The position numbers and the translations under genes were made by a program. DNA of 64,000 nucleotides. Origin: Blastocatellia bacterium (GTDB lineage Bacteria > Acidobacteriota > Blastocatellia > UBA7656). Where the stretch lies: positions 320,001 to 384,000 of the forward strand of contig CAVXWP010000002.1 in NCBI GenBank assembly GCA_963765495.1, written 5' to 3'. Of the stretch, positions 7,768 through 58,909 are shown in pieces; the stretch's first letter is position 1, and each line of letters begins with the position of its first letter. The notes under the pieces are model-generated. The model was given only the letters and a program-made list of their open reading frames with translations. It was not told where the DNA came from and did not search any database.

Positions 7768-10701
7768 ATGACAAAGGAACTGATAATTAGCGCGAACGTG
7801 CATGAGAAGAAAGTGTGCGTCGTCGAAGACGGCATCGTGACTGAATTCTATGTCGAGCGAAGAGACGAAAACCAGGGAGTCGTAGGCAATCTCTACAAGG
7901 GTCGCGTGATGAAGGTGCTGCCCGGAATGCAGTCAGCTTTCGTTGATATCGGGCTTGAGCGCGATGCATTTCTCTATGTATCCGATTTCACGGAGTTCAT
8001 GGAAGAAGAAGATGAGATTGATTTCAAAGAGTCGCCCGAAGAGCAGCGAACTGCCGCCCCGCGCGTGGAGGATCGTTCGCGCCGTTCAGACCGGCGAAGA
8101 CCCGAACCCGCGCCACAAACGCGCAGGCCGGAACATCAAAGGATCAAGGAGGAAGAGGATTCCGATCAGCCTGCCATGTTGGAGGATGTGGTCGAGCAAC
8201 TCGCCGAAATCGCCGATGAGAGCCTGATTCCGCCGCCTGCGCCCGATGAGGAACTCGAAGAGGCGGACATCGAAACAAAAACGAAGGCAGAGACCGACGA
8301 AGAGGTGCAGGAGGCTCGGGTGACGCGTCTCGATGAAACCGACGAGGCTCAGGAGACCGAGGAGGAGCCGAGCGAAGAGGAGGTTTCCAAGGAGGTCGCA
8401 TCTCCGGTCGAAGAGAAACCCGCTAAATCCAGGAGCAGACGCACGAGAACGGCAAAGGCCGAGACATCTGCCGAAAAGCCAAGATCGAGCCGCTCTCGAA
8501 AGAAGACGCAGGAACCCGAAGAAGAGGCTGAAAAGCCAAAGACCGCGCGCCGAAGCAGAAAGAAAAAGGCTGAAACCGAAGCGCCCGAAGAAACCGCCGC
8601 TCCCGAAGCTGAAAAGAGCAAGACGGCAAAGCCAACCGCTCGTCGCTCGTCGCGCAAACGCTCGACAAAGACCGAAGTCGAATCTGCATCCAATAAGAAG
8701 ATCGAAGAGGCAAAGCCCTCAAAACCCGAGTCTCAATTTCAGCGCATAACAGATGAAGACCTGATTGCCGACGCGGGCGATATGCTCAAAGATGCCATCG
8801 TGCAGGAAAAAATCATAGATCAGATCCACACAAGCGAGTATCGAACTACCGCCTTCGAACCCGAACCCGAACCCGAATGGCGCGTGGGCAGCCTGCGATC
8901 AAAGATGCCCGCCACGTCGGATTACATGCGCATCGTGGATGAGACGGGAGAGAATAAAGAGTCTCGAAATCAGCAGGGTGCAAAGGAGGAAGAAGTTTCG
9001 CCAATGCGCCACATATCGAGCGCCTTGCCGGAAGGGCTGCTCGATCAGGCTCTGGCAAACTCATCTGGTGAAGCGGCACCTGCGGGCGATGAAACTGCTT
9101 CTGAGAGTGAGGCCGGGCAAGAGACGGAAGGCGTTCGAGCAAGCGCCGATTCGACAGCAGAGGCAACAACCGGCACAGAGAGCGATCAGTCCGAAGAAGA
9201 GGGTGAAGCCGAAGTGCGGACTCGCGGAAGCCGCGCCGACTTTGCCGTACGTCGAGGAGGCCGGGGCCGTCGCCGCCGTCGCGACACTCCACCTTCAACC
9301 GCACCCGAAGAAGGCGAAGAGAAGAGCGCGCCACCTGCCGAGGCCGCCCCTCCTGCGCCCGAAGTCGCCGAAGTGCCAAAGAGTAATCCTCCGCGCAGAC
9401 CCGATCCCCGTCACCGCCCGCCGCGCCAGGAGGGGGGGCGCAGACCCGATCCTCCACAGCAGATGCGCAGGCCGGATCGCGGCGCTCCAACTATCAGCGA
9501 CCTGCTGCACGAAGGGCAGGAAATCCTTGTTCAGATAGCCAAGGAACCTATCGCGAAAAAGGGCGCGCGCATAACATCACATATAGCGCTTCCCGGTCGT
9601 TATCTGGTTTACATGCCGACGGTCAATCACGTGGGCGTATCGCGCAAGATCGCATCCGATATGGAGCGAATACGTCTGAAGCGAGTCGTTTCCGGGCTCA
9701 GAGATCGAGAATCGGCCAGCGGAGGCTTTATAGCGCGGACGGCCTGCGCGGGCCACACCGAACAGGAACTGCACGACGATATGAAATATCTTCTGCGGAC
9801 CTGGGCAGATGTCAGGAAGAAGGCCGAGCGCAACAAAGCGCCCGACCTCGTGCACCGCGATCTCGACCTTGTTCAGCGCATACTCCGGGATCAGTTGTCG
9901 GAAGAATTCGGCGCCATCCGCATCGATAACGAGATCGAATATGCCCGCATAGTTGAGTTTGTAAATCGCATCCAGCCAAAACTCGTAAAGCGAGTCAAGC
10001 TCTACACGGGCAGCCAGCCGATACTTGAAAAATATGGTGTCCAGCCCGAAATAGACAAGGCCGTCAAACCTCGCGTGTGGCTGAGATCGGGCGGCTATAT
10101 CGTCATCAATCAAACCGAAGCGCTGGTCGCGATTGATGTAAACACCGGCAAATTCGTAGGCAAAAGCGACAAGCTCGAAGACACGATCACGCGAACCAAT
10201 CTGGAGGCGGCTAAAGAGATCGTTCGACAAATCAGGTTGCGCGATCTGGGCGGCATCATCGTGATCGATTTTATAGACATGGATGAGCGCAAGAACCGCC
10301 AGAGAGTAATGACCGCATTGCAGGCGGAGTTGCAAACCGACCGCGCCCCGTCAAAGATTCTGTCAATAAACGATTTCGGGCTAGTGGCCATAACCAGAAA
10401 GCGTGTCAAGCAATCGCTCGAACGCACGCTTTGCACTCCCTGTCCTTATTGTCAGGGCGGCGGGATGGTAAAATCGCCTCAAACCATGTGTTTTGAGATA
10501 CTCGAACAGGCAAAAGCGATGTCGAAAGAGATAACCGGCAGCAGCGATGTAGTTCTCAGAGTCTCGCCCGATGTGGCAGATGCGTTGCGGTCGAGCGAGC
10601 GTGAAGTGCTCGAAGAGATAGAGGCTTACTTCGCCACTCCGCTTTCGATAGAAGCGGACCCGCATCTGCATCAGGAGCAATACGACTTCGCCATACTGTA
10701 G
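7768..10701 (+). CDS. rne: Rne/Rng family ribonuclease with a ~500-aa low-complexity insertion in the S1 domain
   Basis: GNLYKGRVMKVLPGMQSAFVDIG, EILVQIAKEP, AIDVNTG, RLRDLGGIIVIDFIDM and CPYC motifs; AGGAG RBS. Confidence 0.93.
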   Translation: MTKELIISANVHEKKVCVVEDGIVTEFYVERRDENQGVVGNLYKGRVMKVLPGMQSAFVDIGLERDAFLYVSDFTEFMEEEDEIDFKESPEEQRTAAPRVEDRSRRSDRRRPEPAPQTRRPEHQRIKEEEDSDQPAMLEDVVEQLAEIADESLIPPPAPDEELEEADIETKTKAETDEEVQEARVTRLDETDEAQETEEEPSEEEVSKEVASPVEEKPAKSRSRRTRTAKAETSAEKPRSSRSRKKTQEPEEEAEKPKTARRSRKKKAETEAPEETAAPEAEKSKTAKPTARRSSRKRSTKTEVESASNKKIEEAKPSKPESQFQRITDEDLIADAGDMLKDAIVQEKIIDQIHTSEYRTTAFEPEPEPEWRVGSLRSKMPATSDYMRIVDETGENKESRNQQGAKEEEVSPMRHISSALPEGLLDQALANSSGEAAPAGDETASESEAGQETEGVRASADSTAEATTGTESDQSEEEGEAEVRTRGSRADFAVRRGGRGRRRRRDTPPSTAPEEGEEKSAPPAEAAPPAPEVAEVPKSNPPRRPDPRHRPPRQEGGRRPDPPQQMRRPDRGAPTISDLLHEGQEILVQIAKEPIAKKGARITSHIALPGRYLVYMPTVNHVGVSRKIASDMERIRLKRVVSGLRDRESASGGFIARTACAGHTEQELHDDMKYLLRTWADVRKKAERNKAPDLVHRDLDLVQRILRDQLSEEFGAIRIDNEIEYARIVEFVNRIQPKLVKRVKLYTGSQPILEKYGVQPEIDKAVKPRVWLRSGGYIVINQTEALVAIDVNTGKFVGKSDKLEDTITRTNLEAAKEIVRQIRLRDLGGIIVIDFIDMDERKNRQRVMTALQAELQTDRAPSKILSINDFGLVAITRKRVKQSLERTLCTPCPYCQGGGMVKSPQTMCFEILEQAKAMSKEITGSSDVVLRVSPDVADALRSSEREVLEEIEAYFATPLSIEADPHLHQEQYDFAIL

Positions 10702-18206: not shown

Positions 18207-18962
18207 TCATCCGCTACTAAGGCGGCGGGCAATCAGGCTGTAAACAGATGCATTGAAGACCAGCCCGATATGCGTTCCCGGAACTTCAAAATCTGTCTCC
18301 GTCTCATCGTTGATGCAAAAACGCCAATCCACTACGCCGTCTGTCCTTGTGTAAACGGCGGTTTGGCGAATCGATTCCGGGAAAGGCACTTCAAGAGCCG
18401 ACACGGCATCGCATCCGCAATGGCCGGTGTAACAACCGGGCGGTGTGTTATCCGGGCGTGTGCGCTTTATGCGGGCGCGCACCACTTTCGACATTTCAAG
18501 TACTGCCGGGTGTGAACGTATGCCGCGAAAGGGCGACCCCAGCGTTATCACCGATTGGACGCGTTCGGGAAAAAGCATTGCGGCAGATCGAGCCAGTATC
18601 CCGCCCAGGCTGTGGCCTATCAAATGCACCCTGCCACCCGTTTCTACAGTGGCTTTTTCAATCGTCTCCGAGAGACGATCTACCAGCAAATCCAGGCAAT
18701 CGGCGTTGCGGCCTATGCGCGACATATAAGGGCGATAACCTATGCGCCGGAGCCACCAGAAAAGCTCTTGAAGGTAAAGATCGGTTCCCATAAATCCCGG
18801 GATGACTACGACAGCCGAGCGGTCCCCGCGCGGCACTCCAAGCCCGTAAAAGACGGGCGAAGACCTGAGCGCCAGCCAGTCAAACCCGACAAGGCTTTCC
18901 ATCCACAGAGGTCGTTTTGCAGGTTTCAGGTCTTTGTAGAAAGTCTTCGGAGGTGCGGGCAT
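18207..18962 (-). CDS. Alpha/beta hydrolase (lipase/esterase)
   Basis: VVVIPGF, GHSLGG, ITLGSP, DGVV and THIGL. Confidence 0.9.
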   Translation of the reverse strand: MPAPPKTFYKDLKPAKRPLWMESLVGFDWLALRSSPVFYGLGVPRGDRSAVVVIPGFMGTDLYLQELFWWLRRIGYRPYMSRIGRNADCLDLLVDRLSETIEKATVETGGRVHLIGHSLGGILARSAAMLFPERVQSVITLGSPFRGIRSHPAVLEMSKVVRARIKRTRPDNTPPGCYTGHCGCDAVSALEVPFPESIRQTAVYTRTDGVVDWRFCINDETETDFEVPGTHIGLVFNASVYSLIARRLSSG

Positions 18963-19033
18963 TCTTTATCCTCAAGTGTCAAATTTGATCCCAGAACCTC
19001 ACGCTCAGAATTTCACGCTTCGGCCTGCGCGCC

Positions 19034-20482
19034 TTACCGCCCTGCCCTTGCCTGCTTCACAATCCGGGGCTTGATCTCAGGCACTCCGGCCTTCTCGCGC
19101 AACTCAACGAAAGAGGCGTCCAAAAATTCCTTGAGCCGCTCTACATCCGGCATCGCCTGCGTGTCGGATGACAAGCCGAAATAGAGTTTCTGGTCATAGC
19201 TCATAATAGCGCAACCGACGCCTATCGCATAGCCTACGGGGACATAAGGATAATATGCGATCATGCGTTTGCCCATAGCATAGAGCGGGACTTGCGGGCC
19301 GGGTACGTTTGTCGAAACCATATTGAAGGGCGGAATCGGGGTGGTTGCAAGCGCCCCCAACAGCGCCTGTACAGAAGCGGGAAGAATGCCCATCAGTGTT
19401 GTGCCGAGATTCATTCCTTCGGCCACCCGCGTCGCCTTCATCGATCCTGTCTTTTCGTTTATATACCGAAATCGCTTGAGCGGGTCTTTCATGCTCAGAG
19501 GGATTTCGACCGGCAGCATCGAGACGAGATTTCCGAGCGCGCCGCGTTTCTCTTCCTGACGCATGCTGACCGGGACCATCACTCGCAGGTTGCGCCCTCT
19601 CGTCCTCTGGCCGTGCATCTCTACATATCGAGATACCGCGCCCGAAAGCACGGTTAAAACAACATCGTTGACCGTGCCGCCCAGGGCTGCGCGTATGGCT
19701 CTCGCTTCGGCAAATGAGAACTCGCTCCAGACAAGCTTTTTCTCGCCCGAACATGGGCGATTGAATGGAAGCAGCGAAACCGGAGATGAAACGGTCGGAA
19801 GCAGATTTGTGAGCGACCCCATCGACCCGCCTGACGGCCGCTTTGCCATAGCCTGAGTCAGACTCAGCAACCCGTTTTGAAATTCCATCCAGCGATTCAT
19901 CCCCTCCTGCATACCGCCCAGCAACGAATCGAAAAACCTTCTCGTAGGATCGGGCCGAGGCAGCGGCGGTATGGATTCGGGCTTAACAGGGGGCTGTGCT
20001 TTGGGCGAAATATCGAGCACGACTTTCAAAAGATCAACGCCCGAGACTCCATCCACCATGCAATGATGAACTCTTGCGATCATCGCCGTGCGATTGCCTT
20101 CCAGACCATAGACCAGATAGATGTCCCATAGCGGTTTGCCGCGACCCATCATCGGAGTGAGTATCTTTCCGGCAAGCTCTATCAGTTGCTCTTCGGTGCC
20201 GGGCGATTCGATCTGCATCTTGAAGATGTGGCGATTGATGTCGAATTCGGTATCGAATTCCCACGTGGGATGGGCCAGATTGAAAGGGTCGGGAACGATC
20301 TTTTGCTGATAGCGCGGGATCATGTGAAGTTTCGAAGCGACCATCTTCACAAAACGGTCGAAAGAGATTTTACCGTCGAAGACGCTCACGCTGCCTATGT
20401 GCATAGGCGCTTCCTTCTTCTCGAAATAGAGGAAGCTCGCATCCATCGAGGTAAGGCGGCGATTGAGATTGCTCTGTACCAT
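19034..20482 (-). CDS. Wax ester synthase/diacylglycerol acyltransferase (WS/DGAT)
   Basis: [21 protein letters not shown], catalytic HHCMVDG, GTVNDV and STNVPGP. Confidence 0.95.
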
Positions 20483-20558
20483 TTAATCCTCCGGGCACCT
20501 GAGAGGCTTTCTTCGTTGACCGATTATCCGTCTCTCCGCTTGCCGATTTGCGGGGTTC

Positions 20559-21947
20559 TCACCGCTGCTCAATCGTCATTCGCATGCCGTATCTGGGGCG
20601 CAACGTTATCAGCGGTTGCATCTTTACGGGATGATTTGGAACCAGGCGCATCTTCCAGCGCTGGGCGAATGTGGCGATTATCAATATGCCCTCCATCCAG
20701 GCAAACTGCTCGCCTATACAAAGCCTCGGACCGCTGCCAAACGGGAAATAAGCGTGCTTTGGCCGCTCGGCCCTGGCCTCTGGCCTCCACCGCTCGGGAT
20801 CGAATTTAAAAGGATCAGGATAGTATCGCTCGTTGTGGTGCATCACATACTGGCTCAACAAAACTATCGAGCCTGCCGGGATCGAGTAATCGCCTACCCT
20901 GTAAGTGCTCAACGCGCGGCGGCTCATAACCCATACGGGCGGATAGCAGCGCATGGCTTCGGTCAGGACCATCTCGGTGTAAGGCAATCGGGGCACGTCA
21001 TCAACCGTAGGCAATCGGCCCGCGAGCACCCGGTCTATTTCATCGTGGAGACGGGTTTCGACATCCCTGTTTTCCGAAAGCAGATACCACGTCCAGGTCA
21101 GGGCATTGGCCGTCGTTTCGTGCCCCGCCAGAAAGAGCGTCATCGCCTCGTCGCGCAGTTGTTCGTCAGACATTCCGCCGCCATCGCCTTCGGCATCCTG
21201 CGCAAGCAGAAGCATCGAAAGCAGATCGCCCCGGTCTTCTCCGCGCGCGCGTCGCTCTTCGATGATGCGATAGATAGTCTCATCCAGCCGCGCCCGCGCT
21301 CGCTGGACTCTGCGGTTTCCCGGAAGCGGAAGCCTGTCTAGTATCTCGGTCAAAGGAGAGGTAAAAGTCTCGAACATCTCAAGCACTTCCGTGAGCGCCT
21401 GCCCGATCTCTGCGGCTTCATTCTCGACATCGGCATCAAACAGGGTCTTTGCCACAATCGCAAGCGTGAGCCGCATCATCTCAGATGCAACGTCTAGTTT
21501 CTCGCCTTCCTGCCAGCGGTCACGAGTGCGAGCGGCATACTCAGACATAGTCTCGGCATACATGGCGATGCGCTGTTTGTGAAAGGCCGGCTGCGAAAGC
21601 CTCCGCTGGCGGCGATGAAAATTCCCTTCGCTTGTCAGGAGGCCACGGCCAAGCACCTTCTTTGCCCGTTGCAGCCCGCGCCCTTTCAGAAAGTTCCAGT
21701 CGTGTGCAACCAGCACGTTTTGAATGTAATCAGGATGATTGAGCAAAACCGTGTGCTGCGGGCCGAGATTGAAATGGGCTATCTCTCCGTAATCGCGCGC
21801 CACCTTCATCAGGAAGCGGAGCGGGTCACGGGTCATCGCTACGATCTGGCCGCCGGGCGTACTGGTCTTTGGTCCCGGCGGCAGGTTGTTTTTTGCCGAG
21901 GCGACGGATTTGCTTTTGCCTGTCGATTTTTTTGTCCCTGTTCCCAT
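20559..21947 (-). CDS. Cytochrome P450
   Basis: AGHETT, EAMR (ExxR), PERW and [10 protein letters not shown] heme ligand. Confidence 0.97.
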
Positions 21948-21987
21948 CTCTTCACTCCCTCCTTTCTCCTGAGGTTTGGCAGCGCGC

Positions 21988-22557
21988 TCAAGCTTCGGTG
22001 AGGCCGGTCACATCGTAAGACATGACGATCAGATCGTGTGTTCGATCATTTCTATCAATAACATAATCGGCCAGTAAAGCTTCGACTCTGAATCCGAGGC
22101 GTTCAAAGACCTGGATCGCGCCCCTCTGCTCGCTCGCCATACGGGCAACGATTTTCTGAAGCTTGAGTTGCTTGGCGAGGGCGAAAAGCTCATCGGCCAG
22201 AATGCTGCCCAACCCGTAGCCGCGCATGTCGGGGCTTATGAGCAGTTGGATTTCGCCCATGTGCCGGGTCCAGAGCAATTCGTTATGGCCGAGGCTGCCG
22301 TGGCCTACAAGCTTGCCGCCCGCTTCGACAAGTATCGTCTTGATTCTGCCCGATTCGATATTTTTCGCCCATTGCTCGACGGCTTTCTGTCTGGTTATGT
22401 CTATCGAGAGAAACAGCAGATCGTCTTCGGGCAGCGATTTGGCGAATGCGAGAAGCGCCTCCCCGTCTTCGGGCGTCATCAGACGGAAGGTCACAGCCAC
22501 ATCCTTAACCGTAGTCTTCCAGGGGTACTTTCGTTTCGAGACTGACTCTGTAGTCAT
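21988..22557 (-). CDS. GNAT family N-acetyltransferase
   Basis: MRGYGLG acetyl-CoA loop and FERLGF. Confidence 0.88.
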
Positions 22558-22589
22558 TGCTCACTCCTTTGAATTGATTCGCCTTCAGT

Positions 22590-23291
22590 CTACTTTTTCT
22601 GGCCCGATCCTACAAAAGGAAGTTGAGTGGCAAGCTCAAGCCATCGTTTCTGCACATCGACATAATTGGTCACGGCCTGTTGGGCGAAGTCTGCGAGGGC
22701 CGCCGCCGGGGATGATTCATCAAGACCGAGCCCGTCTTTGACAGCGTTGAGCACCTGAGCGTTTTGTTGAGCCGCAAAATCGAGCCACGCGGTGCGGGCT
22801 GCAACAAATGTATCGATGCCCTGGCTCGCATAATCGGAGATCGCGCGCATCACATCGGACGGGTCGAAATTGACGCCCTCTCTGACCGCGTCGTAAAACT
22901 GGGCGCTCTGCTGCGAGGCTACTTCGGCCCATCTTCTCTGCGCTTCCACGAATCCTTCTACGCCCTGCTTTGCCCACTCGGCAAGAGCCGGTGTAGGCGC
23001 ATTTCTGTACAGGCCCATCCCTTCGGTTATGGCCTGAAGCACCAGCGCGTTCTGCTGCGAAGTAAGCTCGATCCATCTCCTCTGCGCCTCGACCAGATTT
23101 TCAACAACCTCTTTGGCCCACTCGGCCGGAGATGGAGTCTGGGCAGCAGTTTCCTTCTTTGATGTCGAATCGCCTGCCGCCGTCTTCTTAGCCGAAGACC
23201 TTGATGACTTTGTTGATTTTGCCGATTTGGCTGACTTCGCTGATGATTTTGTTGAAGACTTTGTCTTCGCTGTTTTTGATTTGCTTGACAT
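22590..23291 (-). CDS. Phasin-like repeat protein with a Lys/Ser/Ala-rich N-terminal tail
   Basis: AAAGGA RBS, basic tail, then four ~47-aa helical repeats (VEAQRRW-type). Phasin-like role is inferred from composition and PhaR context. Confidence 0.6.
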
Positions 23292-23387
23292 GATTTGTTC
23301 CTTTCTCAAATAAAAAATTCGCTCGCCAAATCCGCCGCCAGAGCCAGGCGGAAATGGATTTGAATAGTTGGGAATGCGGCAATAGCC

Positions 23388-23470
23388 CAGGACGGACGCG
23401 GATTAAGACGGATTTTCGCGGATCAGATCCGTGCCGATCTCTATTTTACCGGCCCCCGATCCCCGGCCCC
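23388..23470. repeat. Half copy of the GGACGGACGCGGAT palindrome family plus CCGGCCCC units overlapping the ligase 3' end
   Basis: AATAGCCCAGGACGGACGCGGAT resembles 56379-56412; CCGGCCCCCGATCCCCGGCCCC encodes the ligase tail GPGIGGR. Confidence 0.65.
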
Positions 23471-25128
23471 CGCTCTTCCATATCGCGCAACTCTCTCCGT
23501 AGGACCTTGCCTACACCGCTTTTTGGCAGATTCTCTTTGAACTCTATAAACTGAGGCACTTTGTATCTGGCAAGACGCGCGCGACAGAATTCAATCAACT
23601 CTTCGGTCGTCGCCTCGACTCCCTCTTTGAGCACGATGAATGCTTTCACTGCCTCGCCCCGGTAATCGTCGTTTATGCCTATGACGGCAACCTCTTTCAC
23701 CAAAGGATGAGTGAAGATCACATCTTCTACCTCGTTCGGATAGACGTTGAAACCGCTGACGATGATCATATCTTTCTTGCGCTGGACGATGTAGAAATAT
23801 CCATCCTCATCCATCCGGGCCACATCGCCCGTGTAGAGCCATCCGTCGCGCAACGACTTCGCCGTCTCGGTCTCATTCTGCCAGTAACCCTTCATCACCT
23901 GCGGCCCGCGCAAACACAATTCCCCTTCTTCGCCGAGCGGAAGCTCGCGATTGCCGTCTTCAAGGTCCACGATCTTGCATTCGGTGTCGGGGACAGGCAA
24001 TCCTATGCTGCCCGGTTTGCGCGTTCCAAGCGTAGGCGTCGTGTGAGCAAGCGCGCAGGTTTCGGTCATTCCGTAGCCTTCGAAAAGCATCGCGCTGCTC
24101 AATCGCTCAAACTGCTCGATTACTTCAAGTGGAAGCGGCGCTGATCCGCTGTTGAAGCGCCGGACGCGATCAAGCCCGTAATCGCGTGCCTCCGGGTGAT
24201 TGAGCAGCGAAATAAAAAGCGTAGGCACGGCCGGGAAATATGTAGGCTTATATTCTTTTATGGCCGCAAGCAAAACATTCACATCATACTTCGGGATGAT
24301 GATCTGCATAGCGCCCGTCCATACGCCGTAAATCACGCCGGTCACGAGTCCGTATATGTGGAAATATGGAATCACCATCAGAAAGCGCTCATCGCCTCTA
24401 TGGCTGACATACTGCCCCCAGACGGCGCATTGAATCGTCGCGGCGTAGAGGTTGTAGTGAGTCAGCATCGCGCCTTTTGGCGTTCCCGTCGTCCCGCCCG
24501 TGTACTGGAGAACGGCTATATCTTCTTCCGGGTTTATCTCTACGCGTGGAATCTCACTGATGCTCGTATCGGCAATCAGAGTTGAAAACGAAAGAATCCC
24601 TGTCGCAGACTCACGGGCAGGTTGTGATTCGGCTGAATATTCTTTCAAGCCGGTTGTGATGATGTGTTCGATTGCAGTCTGCCCTTTGATGTTCAAAATC
24701 ATTTCGGCCAACAGGTCGAGAGCGATCAGTGCGCGCATCCCCGAATCCTGAGCTACGAGTTCAACCTCGCGCGGCGTATAGATTGGATTGACATTTGTCA
24801 CGATGGCTCCCAGGCGAATGATCGCGTAGAAGCTGATCAGATATTGAGGACAGTTGGGCAGCATAATGCCTACGCGGTCTCCCTTGCCGATGCCTAATCG
24901 GGAAAGGGCTGTGGCCAGTTTGTCCGCCTGATGCTTGAGTTCGCCAAAAGAGAGTTCGGCACCAAAAAAGGCTGTGGCAGGCCGGTCGCGAAAAAGGCTC
25001 GCGGCCAGATTGAGCACTTGATACAGAGGCTGACGCGGATAATTTATCTGCCCGGACACCCAGAAATCGTAGTGGTTAAGCCAGGGCTTTTCAGCGTATG
25101 GAGATTTTTCGTTAGATTCAGTTTTCAT
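23446..25128 (-). CDS. fadD: Long-chain fatty acid-CoA ligase
   Basis: [33 protein letters not shown] and LPKSGVGK. Confidence 0.93.
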
Positions 25129-25192
25129 CGCTTTTCGATTCAAAACAGAATTGCCTCGATGATTGACCGGACACACGCGCCGGGCGCGAAAT

Positions 25193-26086
25193 CTACGATT
25201 CTGATTTTCTGCCGGAGCGTTTCTTTTTCTCTGTTGCCTGATAAAGATTTCCGGTGCCGGTTGAAGTCTCAGGCGCGGCTCGCCTCATGCCTTCAAGGAA
25301 AGGCACCCCCAGACCAAGGGCAAAATCCATAACGGCTGGAGCAAACCTGTTGAAGAAATTGATCGCCTGCGCATCGAGCGCCAGGACTATTTCGGGTTGT
25401 GGGAATCGCGCGTCCTGAACTATCACTCTTGCCATCTCGCGCGCTGGAAATTTTGGAAGATAGGCGGGCATTTCAAGGCCTACCTGATTGGCGGATGTCT
25501 CAAATATTTCCGTTTCCACGGCTCCGGGAAAGATCGTGCTCACATCGATCTTGTCGGCCATCACTTCGGCTCGAAGCGCCTCCGAAAACCCTGCCAAAGC
25601 AAATTTGCTCGCGCAGTATGCGGTTTCAAACGGCATCCCGCGCTTGCCCATAATTGATGAGACGTTTATGATCACCCCACCCGCCGCCTGAAGGCGCATC
25701 TGCGGAATGGCAGCCTTGCAGGCATAGACGGCTCCCCAGAAATTGACATCCATCACCCGGCGGAAATCTTCGATTGCCTGCTCCTCAAAGCGAGCGGCGA
25801 GCCCAACCCCCGCGTTATTGACCAGCGTATTTATCTGCCCGAATCGCTCAACAGCTTTCTTGATGAGCCCTTCCACCTCTGCCTGGTCAGAAACATCCGT
25901 CTGAACCATCAGCGCCTTTCCGCCTTTTTGCTCGATCTCAGCAACCAGCTCCCGGAGCCGTTCTTTGCGGCGACCGGCCACGACTACCTGAACGCCGGCA
26001 CGCGCAAAGGCGAGCGCAGTCTCGCGCCCGATGCCACTAGTAGCGCCCGTTATCACGGCTGTTGTGCCTCGCAGTTTCCGTATCAT
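25193..26086 (-). CDS. Short-chain dehydrogenase/reductase
   Basis: [12 protein letters not shown] and YCASK. Confidence 0.93.
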
Positions 26087-26185
26087 AAGAGTACCCCTAA
26101 GAGCTTTGAGAAGATGTTGCCGCAAGCTTATATCCTGCCCCCGTCCTGGTGTCAATCTTCCGAGTCGCGATTAAACCCGTAGAGA

Positions 26186-26599
26186 TTAAAGCCCCATCGC
26201 CGCTCGGAAGGGCGCTGTAAAGACATCAAAGGCTTTCCGGCTCTGTTCCAGGATTGCAGCATTATAGCTTTCAACCTCGCTCCTGAATGGATAATCGAAT
26301 TCAAGAGGCGAGAGGTTGAGCAATTGCTCCGAAACTTCGGCAGCCTGTTCCACCCATCCCTGACGTACCTTATTGAGACTTTCCACGTAGGCAACGGCTA
26401 TATTGAGACCCGCTTGCTGCGAGGCTGCGCCCGCTTCCACAAGAGCCGAAACCATTCGGTCGGCAGCCTTCTGCGCCTGTACCGCCGAGCGGAGACTCCC
26501 CACAGCGGTCTGCTGTGACAATTCTATAAGAGTGCCTAATCCATATCCGCCTGATGTCGGCGAGTTTGACGACTGATTCGAATTCTTCTTCTGTGCCAT
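26186..26599 (-). CDS. Small Ala/Gln-rich helical protein, phasin-like
   Basis: AGGAGG RBS; 137 aa, predicted amphipathic helices; first gene divergent from phaR. Confidence 0.55.
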   Translation of the reverse strand: MAQKKNSNQSSNSPTSGGYGLGTLIELSQQTAVGSLRSAVQAQKAADRMVSALVEAGAASQQAGLNIAVAYVESLNKVRQGWVEQAAEVSEQLLNLSPLEFDYPFRSEVESYNAAILEQSRKAFDVFTAPFRAAMGL

Positions 26600-26710
26600 C
26601 TTGAAATCCTCCTGTTTCCAAAAACGTTAACCTGAGCCGCTTCGGGCTCGTTTTCAATCTATCCTCTGGCTCAGGAGCATATCAGAGAAATAATCAATGT
26701 CAAGCACTTT

Positions 26711-26846
26711 TTTCGCAAATGCGAAATAAATTTTGTAAATTCTATATATAGGCAGTTTATAAATAACAGAAATTCAATTAGCCAAATAGTAAGACTTGAA
26801 TTTAGTCGGTTTTTCGAGTATGATACGTTTCGCAATCGCAGCATTC
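26711..26846. promoter_or_regulatory. Candidate PhaR operator(s) in the divergent promoter region
   Basis: Perfect inverted repeat TTTCGCA-AA-TGCGAAA (26711-26726) and a related TTTCGCAATCGCAGCA near 26828-26843. Confidence 0.45.
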
Positions 26847-26928
26847 ACATAATGGCTTATTTAAGAATAAGATAGCATAAAGATGCTTGAGGCAATGCCC
26901 AGAAGCGAAGAGAGTTTCAGGAGAAATT

Positions 26929-27399
26929 ATGGCAAAGAAAAAGGCTGATACAGATCGTCTTATCATCAAACGATACGGCAATCGGAGGTTATATAACACG
27001 GAGACAAGCAGTTACGTCAATTACCAGGATCTGGTCGAGTTGATACGCGGAGGGCAGGATATACAGGTAATAGACTCCCGGACCAGGGAAGATGTAACCA
27101 AGTCAATTCTTATACAACTCATACTTGAGGAAGAGAAGAATAAGAACAGCATACTTCCGCTCGAATTTCTTTTTCAGCTTATCCGGTCGCAGGAAGAATC
27201 TGTCCAGGATTTCTTCAAAAATTATCTGGCTTGGAGCTTTGATGCTTATATGAAGACAAAGCAGGAATTTGACCGGCGTTTTCGTGGCTGGATGGAGATG
27301 AGCGCCAATGCTCCTCAGATGTGGGAAAAATTCATCCCGGGAGCCGAAGCGATGAAGGAATTTTGGGGGTTGAACAAGAAAGACAGCGAGGATGAATAA
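26929..27399 (+). CDS. phaR: Polyhydroxyalkanoate synthesis regulator PhaR-like DNA-binding protein
   Basis: [19 protein letters not shown]...G.DIQVIDS.T.EDVT..IL.QLILEEE...LP.EFL.QLIR; AGGAG RBS. Confidence 0.9.
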
Positions 27400-34182: not shown

Positions 34183-34710
34183 GTGCAAACCTTTAAAATC
34201 GCCCTGACAATAGCCATCGCGCTCTTGCTACAACTGGTACTCACAGACCACTTGCGTTTCTTTCGGTATGTGGACCTGCCGTTGCTGGTAACTGTCTATG
34301 TCAGCCTTCAACGCGCGCCCGTGCTTGCCATGCTGACGGGCGGGGTAGCTGGTCTCGGAGGCGACGCCATTGGCGGCGGCGTGCTCGGTGTTGGAGGTTT
34401 TTCGAAAACACTGATAGGATATTTAGTAGCGTTTGCCAGCATCAAGTTGTCGCTTGAAAACCCGCTTGCCCGACTTGCAGTTGTTGCGCTCGCTTCGGCG
34501 GCAAACACGATTCTGTATGCGGGTCTCAACCTCATGCTTGAGCAGACCTTGCCCGGTATGGATACCTGGGCGCAGTTTGGAAGGACGATTGGATGGAAGG
34601 CGCTCGGCGACACGCTCACGGCTCTGATACTGTTTCTGATCCTCGACAGGGTCTTTGCCGAGCAATCACAGGCCCGTCGAATGGCGATAAAGCGCAGATT
34701 CTATGAGTAG
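34183..34710 (+). CDS. mreD: Rod shape-determining protein MreD
   Basis: Hydrophobic 175-aa protein with DLPLL, between mreC and mrdA. Confidence 0.9.
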   Translation: MQTFKIALTIAIALLLQLVLTDHLRFFRYVDLPLLVTVYVSLQRAPVLAMLTGGVAGLGGDAIGGGVLGVGGFSKTLIGYLVAFASIKLSLENPLARLAVVALASAANTILYAGLNLMLEQTLPGMDTWAQFGRTIGWKALGDTLTALILFLILDRVFAEQSQARRMAIKRRFYE

Positions 34711-36664
34711 CAAGAGAAATTTCAAAGAAGCCGCCTACGATTTCGAATTGAGGCTCTACGGCATTCAATACCTCGTGCTGGTCATCGTCATTGCGCTCGG
34801 ATTTCGCTTTTACGTACTTCAGGTCACGCGCCACGATGTATTTCAGCAGCGCGCCGAAAACAACCGCATACGCGAAATCCCCATCATCGCCCCGCGCGGC
34901 GCTATTCTCGACCGCGAAGAGAAAGTACTCGTAGACAATACGCCTGCCTTTAACATCGTCGTCACTCCCGAAGACATGACCGACCGCAATGAGACTACTC
35001 GCGTGCTGGTCGAAAACCTTGCAGTAGACCGTACTCAGTTGCTCGACGAGTTGAACAATCCGTTGCGCCCAAGATCGCAGCCCGTACTGGTCAAGCAAAA
35101 TGCCACCGCTGCCGACCGCGCCTGGGTCATGGCTCACAACCTCGAACACCCTGAAATAGTTGTAGCCACCCAGCCGCAGAGGGTTTATCGCTACGGCAAA
35201 CTTGCCTCTCATGTGCTCGGCTATATCGGCGAAATCAGCTCTCGCCAGCTTGAACGCGCAAGGTACAAAGAAGCGGGCTATAAATCGGGTGACATCATCG
35301 GACAGGGTGGCATCGAGGCCGTATACGATAAGATTCTGCGCGGTCAGGACGGGATGCGTCGGTTGATTGTCGATAGCCGGGGCCGCCCCGTCCGTGAACT
35401 TGAAACCATCGAACCTATTAGGGGGCAGGACATCATCACTACGCTTGATCTGGATGTTCAACAAACCGCCGAGGAAGAGTTTGACAAGAATGACGAAACG
35501 GGCGTGGCGATTGCCTTAAACCCTCAGAACGGCGAAGTGCTGGCTATGGTTTCGCGCCCCGCCTTCGACCCCAACGTCTTTGCCGCGAATCTTATATCAT
35601 CGGGAGAATACCGCGCCGAAGTGCGAGCGCTTATGACCGACCCGAAAGACCCTATGCATAATGATGCTATTCAGGGGATATACCCGACCGGGTCTACCTG
35701 GAAGCTGCTGATGGCGACAGCCGCGCTCGAAGAAGGCGTCATCACGCCAAAGGATTCCAGAATCGCCTGCGGCGGCGGCATTCAGGTAGGCAATCGCTTT
35801 GTCAGATGCATGGGCAATCACGGCGCGCCCGATATTCACACCGCCATTGTGAAATCCTGCGACGGGTACTTCTACCGCCTCGGCCTGAAGATGGGCGTAG
35901 ATATGATCCACGACTGGGTCGTGAGGTTCGGAGCCGGACGCAAAACAGGAATCGATCTTCCAAGCGAGGTGTCGGGATGGATTCCCTCTCGCGAGCTGAA
36001 GAAGAAATTCAATCCGCGCAACCCGGAATGGAAAGATTTCGATACGGTTATTGCCTCAATAGGTCAGGGGTCGGTGGCTATCTCGCCCCTGCAACTCCTC
36101 TATGCCGTATCGGGAATCATGATGAGCGGAGAGTATAATACGCCTCACATCTTTAAAGAGGCAAAACCCAACGCGCTTTCCGATGTGACTTATTACGAAG
36201 GCGAACCCCGTCGGGTGAGCTTATCGCCTGAGACGGTTAACATCTTGACTTACGGCGCGTGGGGAGTTGTCAACGAGGGCGGAACCGCTGGCAGTGTAGG
36301 CTTTCCCAGAGAGTTGAATGTAGGAGGCAAGACCGGCACCGCTCAGGTAATAGCCATGGAAAAATCACGCGGCGGCAAAGAGCACCGCGACCATGCCTGG
36401 TTCATAGGATTTGCCCCGCTTCACACCGGAGAGAAACCGGAGATCGGCGTAGTGGCGCTGACCGAGCACGGCGGCTTCGGCGGCAGGGCCTCCGCTCCAA
36501 AGGTGAAGATGATAATGGGAGCCTATTACTCCAAGAAGTTTGGCCGCCCCGTATTGCCCGAACTCATAGCCAAAAACGAGCAGGAAAAACTCGATTCCGA
36601 AAAGGACGCTTCAGAGCTTGCCGCGCCCCTTGCGACGGCTGAGGAGCGCGCACTCGATCAGTGA
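34703..36664 (+). CDS. mrdA: Penicillin-binding protein 2, copy 1
   Basis: APRGAILDR, STWK (SxxK), SCD, KTGTAQ and DHAWF. Confidence 0.95.
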   Translation: MSSKRNFKEAAYDFELRLYGIQYLVLVIVIALGFRFYVLQVTRHDVFQQRAENNRIREIPIIAPRGAILDREEKVLVDNTPAFNIVVTPEDMTDRNETTRVLVENLAVDRTQLLDELNNPLRPRSQPVLVKQNATAADRAWVMAHNLEHPEIVVATQPQRVYRYGKLASHVLGYIGEISSRQLERARYKEAGYKSGDIIGQGGIEAVYDKILRGQDGMRRLIVDSRGRPVRELETIEPIRGQDIITTLDLDVQQTAEEEFDKNDETGVAIALNPQNGEVLAMVSRPAFDPNVFAANLISSGEYRAEVRALMTDPKDPMHNDAIQGIYPTGSTWKLLMATAALEEGVITPKDSRIACGGGIQVGNRFVRCMGNHGAPDIHTAIVKSCDGYFYRLGLKMGVDMIHDWVVRFGAGRKTGIDLPSEVSGWIPSRELKKKFNPRNPEWKDFDTVIASIGQGSVAISPLQLLYAVSGIMMSGEYNTPHIFKEAKPNALSDVTYYEGEPRRVSLSPETVNILTYGAWGVVNEGGTAGSVGFPRELNVGGKTGTAQVIAMEKSRGGKEHRDHAWFIGFAPLHTGEKPEIGVVALTEHGGFGGRASAPKVKMIMGAYYSKKFGRPVLPELIAKNEQEKLDSEKDASELAAPLATAEERALDQ

Positions 36665-36676
36665 GGCGCAAAGATT

Positions 36677-58902: not shown

Positions 58903-58909
58903 TACTGGT

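What the first reader, a model, noticed from the sequence alone, without database searches (positions are those of the whole stretch)
18207..27399. PhaR/phasin-type granule machinery coupled to WS/DGAT and P450 instead of PhaC: candidate storage-lipid or polyester body system
Seen: eight co-oriented genes (phasin-like, SDR, acyl-CoA ligase, repeat phasin-like, GNAT, P450, WS/DGAT with intact HHxxxDG, GxSxG hydrolase) divergent from a clear PhaR-type regulator, with no phaC/phaA/phaB in the window. Known: PhaR represses phasin genes and is titrated by PHA granules; WS/DGAT makes wax esters/TAG; Acr1-type SDRs reduce acyl-CoA. Inferred: a PHA-style sensing and coating module re-used for neutral-lipid bodies. 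A P450-made hydroxy fatty acid, CoA-activated and esterified by WS/DGAT, could instead give estolide or cutin-like oligomers, with the hydrolase mobilising them.
Basis: partly seen in the sequence, partly recalled or inferred. Interest (0 to 1): 0.85.

Follow-up and report, generated by a model that had tools for sequence, protein, structure and literature searches.

The report
PhaR-controlled fat-body gene cluster without PHA synthase
A soil acidobacterium that has no bioplastic (PHA) synthase keeps the PHA-type regulator PhaR next to a new coat-like protein, a wax-ester/fat synthase and a lipase, so this control circuit probably manages fat droplets here, which has not been tested.

Summary
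Window 18207-27399 carries eight co-oriented genes on the minus strand: small helical protein, SDR, FadD-like ligase, four-repeat helical protein, GNAT, P450, WS/DGAT (HHCMVDG) and a lipase-like hydrolase (GHSLG). They lie divergent from a PhaR that passes NCBIfam's PhaR cut-off.

The 97.9%-complete genome has one PhaR, one WS/DGAT and no detectable PHA synthase or PHB depolymerase.

Linkage is strongly conserved in Blastocatellia:
- Divergent PhaR upstream of the repeat protein: 61 of 61 loci.
- WS/DGAT downstream: 52 of 53.
- GNAT: 50 of 53.
- Hydrolase: 48 of 53.
- SDR, ligase, small protein and P450 are accessory.

A palindrome, TTCGCA-NN-TGCGA, sits 8 nt upstream of the operon's -35 box in 15 of 15 usable intergenic regions.

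Across 401 Acidobacteriota genomes, 46 of 48 genomes with WS/DGAT have PhaR, against 22 of 353 without it. 52 of 68 PhaR genomes lack PhaC_N.

Best reading (0.55): a PhaR-sensed, coat-protein-covered neutral-lipid body system. The "phasin" label rests on weak similarity only. The estolide/polyester idea is open; in many relatives the P450 slot holds a true CYP102 fatty-acid hydroxylase.

This scan noted the same theme before on other DNA. My paper searches found no description of it.

The parts
18207..18962 (-). Cytoplasmic lipase-like alpha/beta hydrolase (251 aa, GHSLG). Last gene of the operon and a core member.
   Evidence: Pfam gives Abhydrolase_1, Palm_thioest and PGAP1. The nearest solved structures are family I triacylglycerol lipases, E 2.5e-7. 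Sequence read. Present downstream in 48 of 53 loci. A homologue (31% identity, E 4e-27) also follows a distant WS/DGAT in family f6.
19034..20482 (-). WS/DGAT acyltransferase (482 aa, HHCMVDG). The only copy in the genome and a core member.
   Evidence: TIGR02946 at 368 bits, above the cut-off. Both Pfam domains present. Motif read. Nearest PDB entries are 7nxg and 6chj. One copy in the genome. Present in 52 of 53 loci.
20559..21947 (-). Stand-alone cytochrome P450 (462 aa). Accessory.
   Evidence: PF00067 at 309 bits. The nearest PDB entries, 3dbg and 7wzl, are deposited as 'putative cytochrome P450'; next come CYP97, CYP46 and CYP102. Best NCBIfam models are albaflavenone monooxygenase and pentalenene oxygenase, both below their cut-offs. 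An ortholog is present in 12 of 53 loci, a CYP102-type fusion replaces it in 29 of 53, and 12 of 53 have none.
21988..22557 (-). GNAT acyl-CoA N-acyltransferase (189 aa). Core member, always directly after the repeat protein.
   Evidence: PF00583. R112-G113-x-G115-x-G117 is invariant in 20 sequences. Present in 50 of 53 loci. Nearest PDB entries are small-molecule and protein acetyltransferases with E no better than 9e-8.
22590..23291 (-). Four-repeat helical protein (233 aa) with a Lys/Ser-rich basic N-terminal tail. Candidate droplet coat protein, from an undescribed family. Core member.
   Evidence: No Pfam or NCBIfam family. Four helices predicted at pLDDT 63. Three of the four helices have a raised hydrophobic moment; the tail carries +12 and the body -8. 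The family has 405 cluster representatives. Weak Phasin_2 hits occur in 18 of 99 distant members. One copy in the genome.
23446..25176 (-). FadD-like long-chain acyl-CoA ligase (576 aa). Accessory.
   Evidence: AMP-binding domains. Best NCBIfam models are long-chain-fatty-acid--CoA ligases, all below their cut-offs. Present in 22 of 61 loci.
25193..26155 (-). Classical SDR oxidoreductase (320 aa). Accessory; substrate unknown.
   Evidence: adh_short at 198 bits. PRK06181 at 228 bits against a cut-off of 215. Present in 32 of 61 loci.
26186..26599 (-). Small helical protein (137 aa). First gene after the promoter and a rare accessory.
   Evidence: No family found. Present in 4 of 61 loci. The nearest named Atlas clusters are PhaE (0.88), a Phasin_2-bearing cluster (0.87) and PHB_acc (0.86); these are leads only.
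26676..26703 (-). Operon promoter: TTGACA, 16 nt, TATGCT, with TG before the -10.
   Evidence: Best promoter-like site in the 10-kb scan, 10 of 12 matches. GTCAA is conserved at the same offset in 15 of 15 relatives' intergenic regions.
26712..26725 (.). Operator 1: perfect palindrome TTCGCAAATGCGAA, 8 nt upstream of the -35 box.
   Evidence: Read. T[CT]GCA-NN-[TC]GC[GA] lies at this place in 15 of 15 usable intergenic regions. The full 14-mer pattern occurs at only 2 places in 7.3 Mb.
26829..26842 (.). Operator 2: TTCGCAATCGCAGC, 5 nt downstream of a phaR promoter-like -10 (TATGAT, 26819-26824).
   Evidence: A second site of this kind is present in 11 of 15 regions, mostly 117-119 bp from site 1.
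26929..27399 (+). PhaR-family regulator (156 aa from the ATG). The only copy in the genome.
   Evidence: PHB_acc_N at 86.5 bits and PHB_acc at 27.0 bits. TIGR01848 at 115.1 bits against a cut-off of 109.45. One copy. Divergent upstream of the repeat protein in 61 of 61 loci.

Best explanation
This is a self-contained operon for intracellular neutral-lipid storage bodies, governed by a PhaR-type circuit in an organism that makes no PHA.

Proposed mechanism, all steps inferred unless marked otherwise:
- WS/DGAT esterifies acyl-CoA to an alcohol acceptor: diacylglycerol, fatty alcohol, or a P450-made hydroxy-fatty acid where a P450 is present.
- The product forms hydrophobic droplets.
- The four-repeat amphipathic protein coats the droplets. 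Its basic tail may tether them to DNA.
- PhaR binds the conserved palindromes at the operon promoter and at its own promoter. It is titrated away by the hydrophobic droplet surface, so coat and enzyme supply follows the droplet surface area.
- The cytoplasmic lipase-like hydrolase mobilises the store.
- Ligase, SDR and P450 are lineage-variable feeders or modifiers of the lipid.
- The role of the core GNAT is unknown.

Shown here: gene identities, conserved linkage, the conserved operator-like palindromes, the failure to detect PHA genes, and phylum-wide co-occurrence of PhaR with WS/DGAT. Inferred: droplets, coating, titration, and the direction of regulation.
For: 1. Gene identities.

2. No PHA machinery was detected in a 97.94%-complete genome. 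PhaC_N gave nothing. TIGR01836 reached only 21 bits. TIGR01838 gave nothing. PHB_depo_C gave nothing. Phasin_2 gave nothing. tblastn found no homologue of relatives' class-III-like PhaC or PF05597 phasins. The genome has one PhaR, one WS/DGAT and one repeat protein, all in this cluster.

3. The module is all-or-none. In the same family, the same 14 of 24 genomes hold the repeat protein, WS/DGAT and PhaR. None of these 14 has PhaC_N.

4. Synteny in 80 species-level loci: PhaR 61 of 61, WS/DGAT 52 of 53, GNAT 50 of 53, hydrolase 48 of 53.

5. In another acidobacterial family (f34) the same four parts recur in a different order. The repeat-family protein (E 1.5e-34 to 2.1e-44) lies divergent from PhaR. 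In two of the three f34 loci a PGAP1-like hydrolase follows it and WS/DGAT lies directly beside PhaR; the third was scanned with the repeat profile only.

6. Operator: the palindrome is present in 15 of 15 regions and flanks the -35 box. A second site overlaps the predicted phaR transcription start. Half-sites GCA/TGC match the experimentally defined PhaR sites of S. meliloti (YGCR-N-YGCR, two copies flanking the -35 of phaP1/2; passages of PMC12542648) and R. eutropha (TGCR-N-YGCA; BS1 directly upstream of -35 and BS2 at the TSS; passages of PMC12849132).

7. Phylum sample of 401 genomes: PhaR is in 46 of 48 WS/DGAT-positive genomes against 22 of 353 WS/DGAT-negative ones. 52 of 68 PhaR genomes lack PhaC_N, and 34 of these 52 have WS/DGAT. 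In 19 of those 34, PhaR lies within 10 kb of WS/DGAT. This is true in 0 of the 12 genomes that also have PhaC, where PhaR sits by PhaC.

8. Coat-like features of the repeat protein. It is all-helical. Helices 1, 2 and 4 have hydrophobic moments at z 2.2, 3.4 and 2.7 over shuffles. The tail is Lys-rich, and some homologues carry AKP-type repeats like the DNA-binding domain of phasin PhaF (passage of PMC5658603). Weak Phasin_2 matches occur in 18 of 99 distant family members, PHA_synth_III_E in 4 and ApoB100_C in 8.

9. The hydrolase is closest to triacylglycerol lipases.
Against: - No droplet, lipid or transcript was observed. No RNA run is on record for this stretch.
- The repeat protein itself has no phasin hit, even at E up to 10. 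Its model is of low confidence (pLDDT 63). Foldseek found nothing below E = 1. Helix 3 is not amphipathic (z 0.7).
- The operator has a 2-nt spacer, whereas the characterised PhaR sites have 1 nt.
- The main operator lies upstream of -35, which is also a typical activator position. PhaR activates phaP3 in R. eutropha (PMC12849132). Repression is therefore not established.
- Plain TAG or wax storage gives no role to two conserved elements: the core GNAT and the P450 found in 41 of 53 loci.
- PF07167 sees class III/IV synthases only through its last ~58 positions, so a very divergent synthase could be missed. Relatives in family f2 have unexplained alpha/beta hydrolases beside a PhaR-phasin fusion.
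- All relatives are metagenome-assembled genomes and are related to one another, so the counts overstate independence.
- Several loci come from the same genomes as loci.
Confidence: 0.55

Rival explanations
1. Same circuit, different product. The P450 makes (sub)terminal hydroxy-fatty acids, the ligase activates them, and WS/DGAT esterifies hydroxyl to acyl-CoA repeatedly. This would give estolides or poly(hydroxy-fatty-acid) polyester granules, a long-chain analogue of PHA. PhaR and the coat protein would sense and cover the granules, and the hydrolase would depolymerise them.
For: The window holds all three needed enzymes. A P450 occupies the slot between GNAT and WS/DGAT in 41 of 53 loci, with two unrelated types. 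The second type occurs in 39 of the 80 loci; all 31 frames not cut by a locus end are 1070-1136 aa, and the one examined carries P450, flavodoxin, FAD and NAD domains and scores 1087 bits to full-length P450 BM3-type chains. An engineered acyl-CoA synthetase plus Marinobacter wax synthase WS2 polymerises omega-hydroxy fatty acids to about 10.8 kDa polyester in whole cells. The same abstract calls PHA the only known native polyester route (abstract of PMC12933353). A PHA-type sensor fits a polyester.
Against: 12 of 53 loci have no P450 and only 22 of 61 have the ligase, yet PhaR, coat protein, WS/DGAT and hydrolase persist. The window's own P450 is not a CYP102: 146 bits to BM3 against 254 to 3dbg. 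It has no redox partner in the cluster. By recall, BM3-type enzymes make secondary alcohols, which are poorer WS/DGAT acceptors. No chemistry was observed.
Confidence: 0.15
2. An assimilation or detoxification route for exogenous lipids or hydrocarbons. P450, SDR and ligase oxidise and activate incoming substrate, the lipase cleaves esters, and WS/DGAT parks the surplus as wax ester, as in oil-degrading bacteria. PhaR would act as a general carbon-overflow regulator.
For: P450, dehydrogenase-type SDR, FadD-like ligase and lipase form a plausible oxidation and activation chain. In family f34 an AdhE-like aldehyde/alcohol dehydrogenase or an ALDH sits beside WS/DGAT. The genome has a fatty acyl-CoA reductase elsewhere, with NAD_binding_4 and Sterile domains.
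Against: The oxidation genes are the variable part and the storage-type genes are the constant part. The hydrolase shows no signal-peptide-like N-terminus by eye. No transporter is conserved in the cluster. This reading still ends in WS/DGAT-made droplets, so it differs mainly in carbon source.
Confidence: 0.1
3. The helical proteins are not droplet coats. The cluster would make a non-storage lipid, such as a modified membrane or envelope lipid involving the GNAT. The repeat protein would be a nucleoid-associated or regulatory partner of PhaR.
For: The repeat protein has a histone-like basic tail and no significant phasin match of its own. The GNAT is core and unexplained.
Against: WS/DGAT products are neutral lipids (family knowledge). 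A lipase partner travels with WS/DGAT even outside PhaR clusters. Distant members of the repeat family hit Phasin_2, PhaE and apolipoprotein models, not DNA-binding families. In other Acidobacteriota, PhaR neighbourhoods hold patatin lipases, ABC1 kinases and an acyl-CoA-binding protein. By recall, these are lipid-droplet-type proteins.
Confidence: 0.1
4. PhaR and the helical proteins serve PHA granules made by an unrecognised synthase elsewhere in the genome, and WS/DGAT is only a neighbour.
For: PhaR is a full family member. PF07167 is a weak detector of short synthases. The genome is 97.94% complete, not closed.
Against: Five family searches and tblastn with relatives' PhaC-like proteins found nothing. 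None of the 14 cluster-bearing genomes of the same family has PhaC_N. Linkage to WS/DGAT holds in 52 of 53 loci, and the operator sits on the WS/DGAT operon's promoter.
Confidence: 0.03

Closest known systems
PhaR-PhaP autoregulatory circuit of PHA granules (Cupriavidus necator/R. eutropha, Paracoccus denitrificans, Sinorhizobium meliloti AniA)
   Same: The regulator belongs to the same family (TIGR01848 passed). It lies divergent from a gene for a small amphipathic helical protein. GCA/TGC palindromes flank the -35 of the target promoter and also lie at phaR's own promoter (PMC12542648 and PMC12849132, passages read). A hydrolase for mobilisation lies in the same regulon.
   Different: No PHA synthase, depolymerase or recognised phasin is in the genome. 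The regulated operon encodes WS/DGAT, a lipase, a GNAT and a P450. The operator spacer is 2 nt rather than 1. The coat candidate belongs to an undescribed four-repeat family.
PhaF/PhaM-type phasins with histone-like tails (Pseudomonas putida PhaF)
   Same: A helical polymer-binding-like body joined to a Lys/Ala/Pro- or Lys/Ser-rich basic tail (PhaF described in PMC5658603, passage read).
   Different: The tail is N-terminal here and C-terminal in PhaF. There is no PF05597 match. DNA binding was not tested.
Actinobacterial lipid-droplet proteins (Rhodococcus TadA, MLDS with regulator MLDSR); recalled, not from any call
   Same: Small structural proteins on TAG droplets, some with basic DNA- or heparin-binding tails. 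One has its own adjacent regulator.
   Different: The protein and regulator families are unrelated, and those genes are not in an operon with WS/DGAT. No sequence comparison was made here.
WS/DGAT AtfA of Acinetobacter baylyi (PDB 7nxg) and Marinobacter WS/DGAT (PDB 6chj)
   Same: Same family, both domains and the HHxxxDG motif.
   Different: Only distant similarity (E 2e-44 and 9e-39). Here the gene is embedded in a PhaR-controlled operon with a coat candidate and a lipase.
Engineered acyl-CoA synthetase + wax synthase cascade that makes poly(hydroxy fatty acid) (PMC12933353, abstract read)
   Same: A ligase plus a WS-type acyltransferase. The window adds a P450 that could supply the hydroxy acid.
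   Different: That cascade is synthetic and is fed omega-hydroxy acids. Nothing shows that the natural cluster makes a polymer.

Membership tests
PhaR (TIGR01848; PF07879 + PF05233) | N-terminal PHB_acc_N DNA-binding domain | tested here: met
   86.5 bits against a cut-off of 25.
PhaR (TIGR01848; PF07879 + PF05233) | Whole-protein score above the NCBIfam equivalog cut-off, and a C-terminal PHB_acc domain | tested here: met
   TIGR01848 at 115.1 bits against 109.45. PHB_acc at 27.0 bits against 27, i.e. exactly at the cut-off.
PhaR (TIGR01848; PF07879 + PF05233) | Palindromic GCA/TGC operators at the target promoter and at its own promoter | tested here: inconclusive
   Conserved palindromes are present in 15 of 15 and 11 of 15 regions. 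The spacer is 2 nt against 1 nt in characterised sites. Binding was not tested.
PhaR (TIGR01848; PF07879 + PF05233) | Functional and genomic association with a PHA synthase and PHA granules | tested here: not met
   No PhaC in the genome. 52 of 68 acidobacterial PhaR genomes lack PhaC_N.
Phasins (PF09361, PF05597, PF09602, PF09650) | Sequence match to a phasin family | tested here: not met
   No phasin family for either helical protein at E up to 10. Among 99 distant relatives of the repeat protein, 18 have Phasin_2 at E <= 0.01, and only 1 is over the cut-off.
Phasins (PF09361, PF05597, PF09602, PF09650) | Amphipathic helical architecture | tested here: met
   Four long helices. Three of them have a hydrophobic moment above shuffles: z 2.2, 3.4 and 2.7, with helix 3 at z 0.7.
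Phasins (PF09361, PF05597, PF09602, PF09650) | Location on the surface of storage inclusions, with abundance tracking the polymer | not testable with these tools
   Needs microscopy or proteomics.
WS/DGAT (TIGR02946; PF03007 + PF06974) | Catalytic and C-terminal domains, score above the cut-off, HHxxxDG motif | tested here: met
   193 and 92 bits. 368 bits against 310. HHCMVDG.
CYP102 (P450 BM3) self-sufficient fatty-acid hydroxylases | P450 fused to an FMN/FAD/NADPH reductase, with high similarity to BM3 | tested here: not met
   The window's P450 is 462 aa, unfused, and scores 146 bits to BM3 heme domains. The replacement gene in relatives does meet the feature: four domains, 1087 bits, and all 31 frames not cut by a locus end are 1070-1136 aa.
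Triacylglycerol lipases of the alpha/beta fold | GxSxG nucleophile elbow and similarity to lipases | tested here: met
   GHSLG. The best PDB matches are family I lipases, but only at E 2.5e-7 over about 100 residues. The Asp/His of the triad were not mapped.
Acr1-type fatty acyl-CoA reductase (SDR) | Specific similarity to Acinetobacter Acr1, or activity on acyl-CoA | not tested
   No Acr1 sequence or model was at hand. Only generic SDR models matched.
PHA storage system | PHA synthase PhaC (class I-IV) | tested here: not met
   The genome is 97.94% complete.

The most novel reading that the evidence does not exclude
The cluster is a natural, PhaR-sensed pathway to granules of estolide or poly(hydroxy-fatty-acid) polyester. 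It would be made by P450 hydroxylation, CoA activation and iterative WS/DGAT esterification. That would be a second native route to intracellular polyester besides PHA synthase, with its own coat protein family and depolymerase.
Probability: 0.15. Interest if true: 0.95.

Novelty: new variant of a known kind. Interest (0 to 1): 0.75.

Why it matters
Bacterial fat droplets are well studied only in actinobacteria and a few oil-degrading proteobacteria, and no dedicated sensor-and-coat circuit comparable to PhaR-phasin is known for them.

If PhaR here reads out neutral-lipid bodies, several things follow:
- PhaR would be a general sensor of hydrophobic inclusions rather than a PHA-specific regulator.
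- PhaR would be a poor genomic marker for PHA storage in soil surveys. One preprint uses it that way (10.1101/2024.12.02.626346, passages read). In this sample, 52 of 68 acidobacterial PhaR genomes lack PhaC_N.
- Abundant, mostly uncultured soil Acidobacteriota would gain a predicted carbon-storage trait that matters for soil carbon budgets.

The compact operon offers a directly testable, portable module for droplet engineering: regulator, operator, coat, synthase and lipase. If the P450 branch makes hydroxy-acid esters, it would also be a lead to natural non-PHA polyesters.

Tried and rejected
- Foldseek of the repeat-protein model against the PDB gave nothing below E = 1. ApoA-IV appeared at E 1.4, which is not significant. 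The model itself is weak (pLDDT 63).
- Complex prediction with GNAT and the repeat protein gave no verdict: score 0.00, controls not run. It says nothing either way.
- The look-up of sequencing runs listed no RNA holder. There was one DNA holder, a soil metagenome that is possibly the source sample.
- Pfam family PF28026 is attached to 3 of 56 homologues in the protein database but is not in the local library. Its name is unknown to me and it may already describe this family.
- The second perfect 14-mer palindrome in the genome (C16:160815) overlaps the start of a small secreted-looking ORF. I judge it to be chance: about one occurrence is expected (my own estimate from base composition, not computed in a call).
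- ESM Atlas: for both helical proteins the nearest named clusters were PhaE, Phasin_2 and PHB_acc, at 0.81-0.88, below the 0.9 mark. I keep these as leads only.
- Paper PMC135160 (Maehara 2002) is not held.
- Literature searches that found nothing linking PhaR or phasins with WS/DGAT bodies. Subscription journals are largely outside that library.
- An Acr1-type role for the SDR could not be tested.
- A PhaR phylogeny (WS/DGAT-linked against PhaC-linked) was considered and not done. The 60-residue conserved domain would resolve poorly.

Full report
**Observation**

ORF listing and family scans confirm the nine genes. All are on the minus strand except PhaR.

| Gene | Coordinates | Evidence |
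|---|---|---|
| Alpha/beta hydrolase | 18207-18962 | GHSLG; no signal-peptide-like N-terminus by eye |
| WS/DGAT | 19034-20482 | TIGR02946, 368 bits against cut-off 310; HHCMVDG |
| P450 | 20559-21947 | PF00067 |
| GNAT | 21988-22557 | PF00583 |
| Four-repeat helical protein | 22590-23291 | No family |
| FadD-like ligase | 23446-25176 | AMP-binding domains |
| Classical SDR | 25193-26155 | adh_short |
| Small helical protein (137 aa) | 26186-26599 | No family |
| PhaR (plus strand) | 26929-27399 | TIGR01848, 115.1 bits against 109.45 |

The two helical proteins match no Pfam or NCBIfam family, and no phasin family even at E up to 10. The rest of the window encodes housekeeping functions: RodA, RNase E/G, MreB, two PBP2, DXS, polyphosphate kinase and others. 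It holds no PHA gene.

**The genome makes no recognisable PHA**

The assembly has 7.30 Mb in 17 contigs and is 97.94% complete. The searches gave:
- No PhaC_N.
- Only a 21-bit generic hit to the class III model.
- No class I synthase.
- No PHB_depo_C.
- No Phasin_2.
- No tblastn hit to the class-III-like PhaC or the PF05597 phasins that relatives carry.

The genome holds exactly one PhaR, one WS/DGAT and one member of the repeat family, and all three are in this cluster.

**Conservation**

In 41 related genomes, the same 14 of 24 genomes of the same family carry the repeat protein, WS/DGAT and PhaR. None of those 14 has PhaC_N. The only PhaC_N hit in the family is in a genome without the cluster.

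tblastn of the window's proteins on 20 fetched loci showed one common order: PhaR, divergent from [small][SDR][ligase], then repeat protein, GNAT, [P450], WS/DGAT, hydrolase.

A profile of the repeat protein (alignment A1, 47 sequences chosen from the 56 hits and the loci) found 168 relatives among the species-representative genomes. The best 80 loci were kept. All are Blastocatellia or Acidobacteriota MAGs by neighbourhood, though some carry automatic Clostridia or Heliomicrobium labels.

Only loci with enough flank were counted: 61 of 80 for the upstream side and 53 of 80 for the downstream side.

| Component | Loci with it |
|---|---|
| Divergent PhaR upstream | 61 of 61 |
| WS/DGAT downstream | 52 of 53 (the exception is rearranged, with WS/DGAT and hydrolase upstream) |
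| GNAT | 50 of 53 |
| Hydrolase | 48 of 53 |
| SDR | 32 of 61 |
| Ligase | 22 of 61 |
| Small helical protein | 4 of 61 |
| P450 ortholog | 12 of 53 |
| A different P450 | 29 of 53 |
| No P450 | 12 of 53 |

Some of these loci come from the same genomes as those, and all are related to each other. The counts are therefore not independent events.

**The core recurs outside Blastocatellia**

In family f34 a 302-362-aa member of the repeat family (E 1.5e-34 to 2.1e-44 with the A1 profile) lies divergent from PhaR in the three loci fetched (L123, L124, L130). In L123 and L124, the two that were scanned with Pfam, a PGAP1-like hydrolase and an ABC1 kinase follow it. There WS/DGAT lies tail-to-tail with PhaR, beside an aldehyde dehydrogenase or an AdhE-like gene (63 of 104 ORFs of nine loci were scanned).

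A homologous hydrolase (31% identity, E 4e-27) also follows a distant WS/DGAT (29% identity) in family f6, which does have PhaC-like genes beside another PhaR.

**Phylum-wide sample**

The sample was 401 genomes, each at least 80% complete.
- WS/DGAT occurs in 48 genomes, PhaR in 68 and PhaC_N in 16.
- PhaR is present in 46 of the 48 WS/DGAT genomes. The two exceptions have only sub-threshold WS/DGAT hits.
- PhaR is present in 22 of the 353 other genomes.
- All 16 PhaC_N genomes have PhaR.
- 52 of the 68 PhaR genomes lack PhaC_N, and 34 of those 52 have WS/DGAT.
- In 19 of those 34, PhaR lies within 10 kb of the WS/DGAT hit. This is true in none of the 12 genomes that also have PhaC_N.
- Five of the 19 (family f36) have only partial WS/DGAT-like matches, at E 1e-18 to 1e-21.

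**Regulation**

The 330-bp divergent region holds the best sigma-70-like site of the 10-kb scan. It reads TTGACA, 16 nt, TATGCT, with TG before the -10, at 26703-26676 on the operon strand.

Eight nucleotides upstream of its -35 box lies the perfect palindrome TTCGCAAATGCGAA (26712-26725). The pattern T[CT]GCA-NN-[TC]GC[GA] occupies the same position in 15 of 15 usable intergenic regions. A 16th region was too short, because phaR there abuts a degraded ligase gene.

A second site, TTCGCAATCGCAGC (26829-26842), starts 5 nt after a phaR promoter-like -10. It recurs in 11 of 15 regions, mostly 117-119 bp from the first site.

The full palindrome pattern occurs at only two places in the genome. 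The other lies inside the start of a small ORF and is probably chance.

The half-sites match experimentally defined PhaR sites:
- S. meliloti: YGCR-N-YGCR, with two copies flanking the -35 of phaP1/2 (passages of PMC12542648).
- R. eutropha: TGCR-N-YGCA, with BS1 directly upstream of -35 and BS2 at the TSS (passages of PMC12849132).

The spacer here is 2 nt instead of 1. Because R. eutropha PhaR also activates phaP3 from upstream sites (same paper), I cannot say whether the operon is repressed or activated.

**The coat candidate**

The repeat protein has two parts. The first is a 54-residue tail rich in Lys, Ser, Ala and Thr, with net charge +12. The second is an acidic body (net -8) of four repeats of the type xEWAKxxVExxVEAQRRWxExxxQQNA.
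- AlphaFold predicts four long helices at low confidence (pLDDT 63).
- Helices 1, 2 and 4 are more amphipathic than shuffles (z 2.2, 3.4, 2.7). Helix 3 is not (z 0.7).
- Some homologues carry AKP-type tails, like the DNA-binding domain of phasin PhaF (PMC5658603, passage).
- A profile search found 405 cluster representatives at E <= 0.001.
- I scanned 99 of the 150 listed representatives, leaving out short fragments and sequences already in A1. Of these, 18 had Phasin_2 at E <= 0.01 (one over the cut-off), 4 PHA_synth_III_E, 8 ApoB100_C and 1 ApoLp-III.
- The Atlas gave PhaE, Phasin_2 and PHB_acc as nearest named clusters for both helical proteins, at 0.81-0.88. These are leads only.
- Foldseek found nothing significant.

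I therefore call it coat-like, not a phasin.

**The enzymes**

- WS/DGAT is nearest to AtfA (PDB 7nxg) and the Marinobacter enzyme (PDB 6chj).
- The hydrolase is nearest to family I triacylglycerol lipases, weakly.
- The window's P450 is nearest to two chains deposited as putative P450s (3dbg, 7wzl), then to CYP97, CYP46 and CYP102.
- The other P450 type is found in 39 of the 80 loci. All 31 frames not cut by a locus end are 1070-1136 aa.
- The one examined carries P450, flavodoxin, FAD and NAD domains. It scores 1087 bits to full-length BM3-type chains.
- Two unrelated P450s in one slot argue that oxygenation of a fatty substrate is a recurrent, though dispensable, step.
- The GNAT keeps its acyl-CoA-binding RGxGxG and resembles small-molecule or protein acetyltransferases only weakly. 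Its role is open.
- A fatty acyl-CoA reductase (HAD + NAD_binding_4 + Sterile) exists elsewhere in the genome, so wax esters are feasible.

**Interpretation**

The constant set is PhaR, coat-like protein, GNAT, WS/DGAT and lipase. Its all-or-none distribution, the operator on the operon promoter and the lack of PHA genes fit a storage-lipid body system that re-uses PhaR logic (confidence 0.55).

The product may be TAG or wax ester, with hydroxy-acid esters where P450s are present. An engineered ligase plus wax synthase makes poly(hydroxy fatty acid) in cells (abstract of PMC12933353), so the polyester reading is chemically possible (0.15).

Points recalled from memory and not checked here:
- PhaP1 is targeted to TAG inclusions in Rhodococcus.
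- PhaR adsorbs non-specifically to hydrophobic polymers.
- ABC1 kinases occur on plastoglobules.
- BM3 hydroxylates at omega-1 to omega-3.
- AtfA has a broad acceptor range.

**Novelty**

Searches of the paper library for PhaR or phasin together with wax ester synthase, DGAT or lipid droplets, and for Blastocatellia or Pyrinomonadaceae storage lipids, found no description. One preprint treats PhaR purely as a PHA marker.

Earlier notes of this scan describe the same theme on other DNA: Terriglobia, Vicinamibacteria, peat Acidobacteria, sponge-type Acidobacteriota with a phasin-like/GNAT pair, and Desulfobacterales. They are unchecked AI notes that I saw only after my own analysis. They agree with my reading but are not independent evidence.

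Noticed in passing
L033-L035, L037 (relatives G025, G026, G028, G034): In sister families without WS/DGAT or PhaC_N, PhaR's DNA-binding domain is fused to a PF05597 phasin domain. In family f2 the fusion sits beside two unexplained alpha/beta hydrolases (about 330 and 415 aa), a ClpB-like ATPase, a TetR and an acyl-CoA ligase. These hydrolases may be an unrecognised synthase or lipase pair.
   Followed up: partly
L125, L126, L128 (G388, G045, G134): In other acidobacterial classes, PhaR neighbourhoods hold ABC1 atypical kinases, patatin-like lipases, an acyl-CoA-binding protein, ArsA/ParA-like ATPases and HMG-CoA reductase, along with WS/DGAT or WS/DGAT-like genes. This is a lipid-droplet-like gene set of different composition.
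   Followed up: partly
L008:11609-12043: A small deazaflavin-dependent nitroreductase / F420H2-quinone-reductase-like gene sits between the GNAT and the CYP102-type P450 in this relative's cluster.
   Followed up: no
window 7768-10701: The RNase E/G homologue has a roughly 600-residue N-terminal extension before the catalytic domain. The DNA there has an unusually strong AT skew (0.35) and the window's highest GC content.
   Followed up: no
window 34703-38635: Two tandem PBP2-type transpeptidase paralogs (653 and 652 aa) lie downstream of mreB.
   Followed up: no
window 58189-59929: Two adjacent, overlapping ORFs both match thymidylate kinase (274 and 339 aa).
   Followed up: no
G000:C9:784736-787108 (L024:751-3123): A 790-aa protein joins a HAD-like domain to a fatty acyl-CoA reductase (NAD_binding_4 + Sterile). 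A second NAD_binding_4 protein follows it. These could supply fatty alcohol for wax esters or ether lipids.
   Followed up: partly
window 26712-26842 and relatives' intergenic regions: The two operator-like sites are 117-119 bp apart, start to start, in 7 of the 11 regions that have both. That is about 11 helical turns, which would suit looping between PhaR dimers.
   Followed up: no
P0035, P0038, P0058 (homologues of the repeat protein): Three of 56 homologues carry a precomputed Pfam label, PF28026, that is absent from the local Pfam copy. The family may have been entered in a newer Pfam release.
   Followed up: partly
window 23292-23445: The 150-bp gap between the ligase and the repeat-protein gene holds a GC-rich hairpin followed by a T-rich run. 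In many relatives the repeat protein is the first gene after PhaR, so this may be an attenuator or a remnant of an internal start.
   Followed up: no
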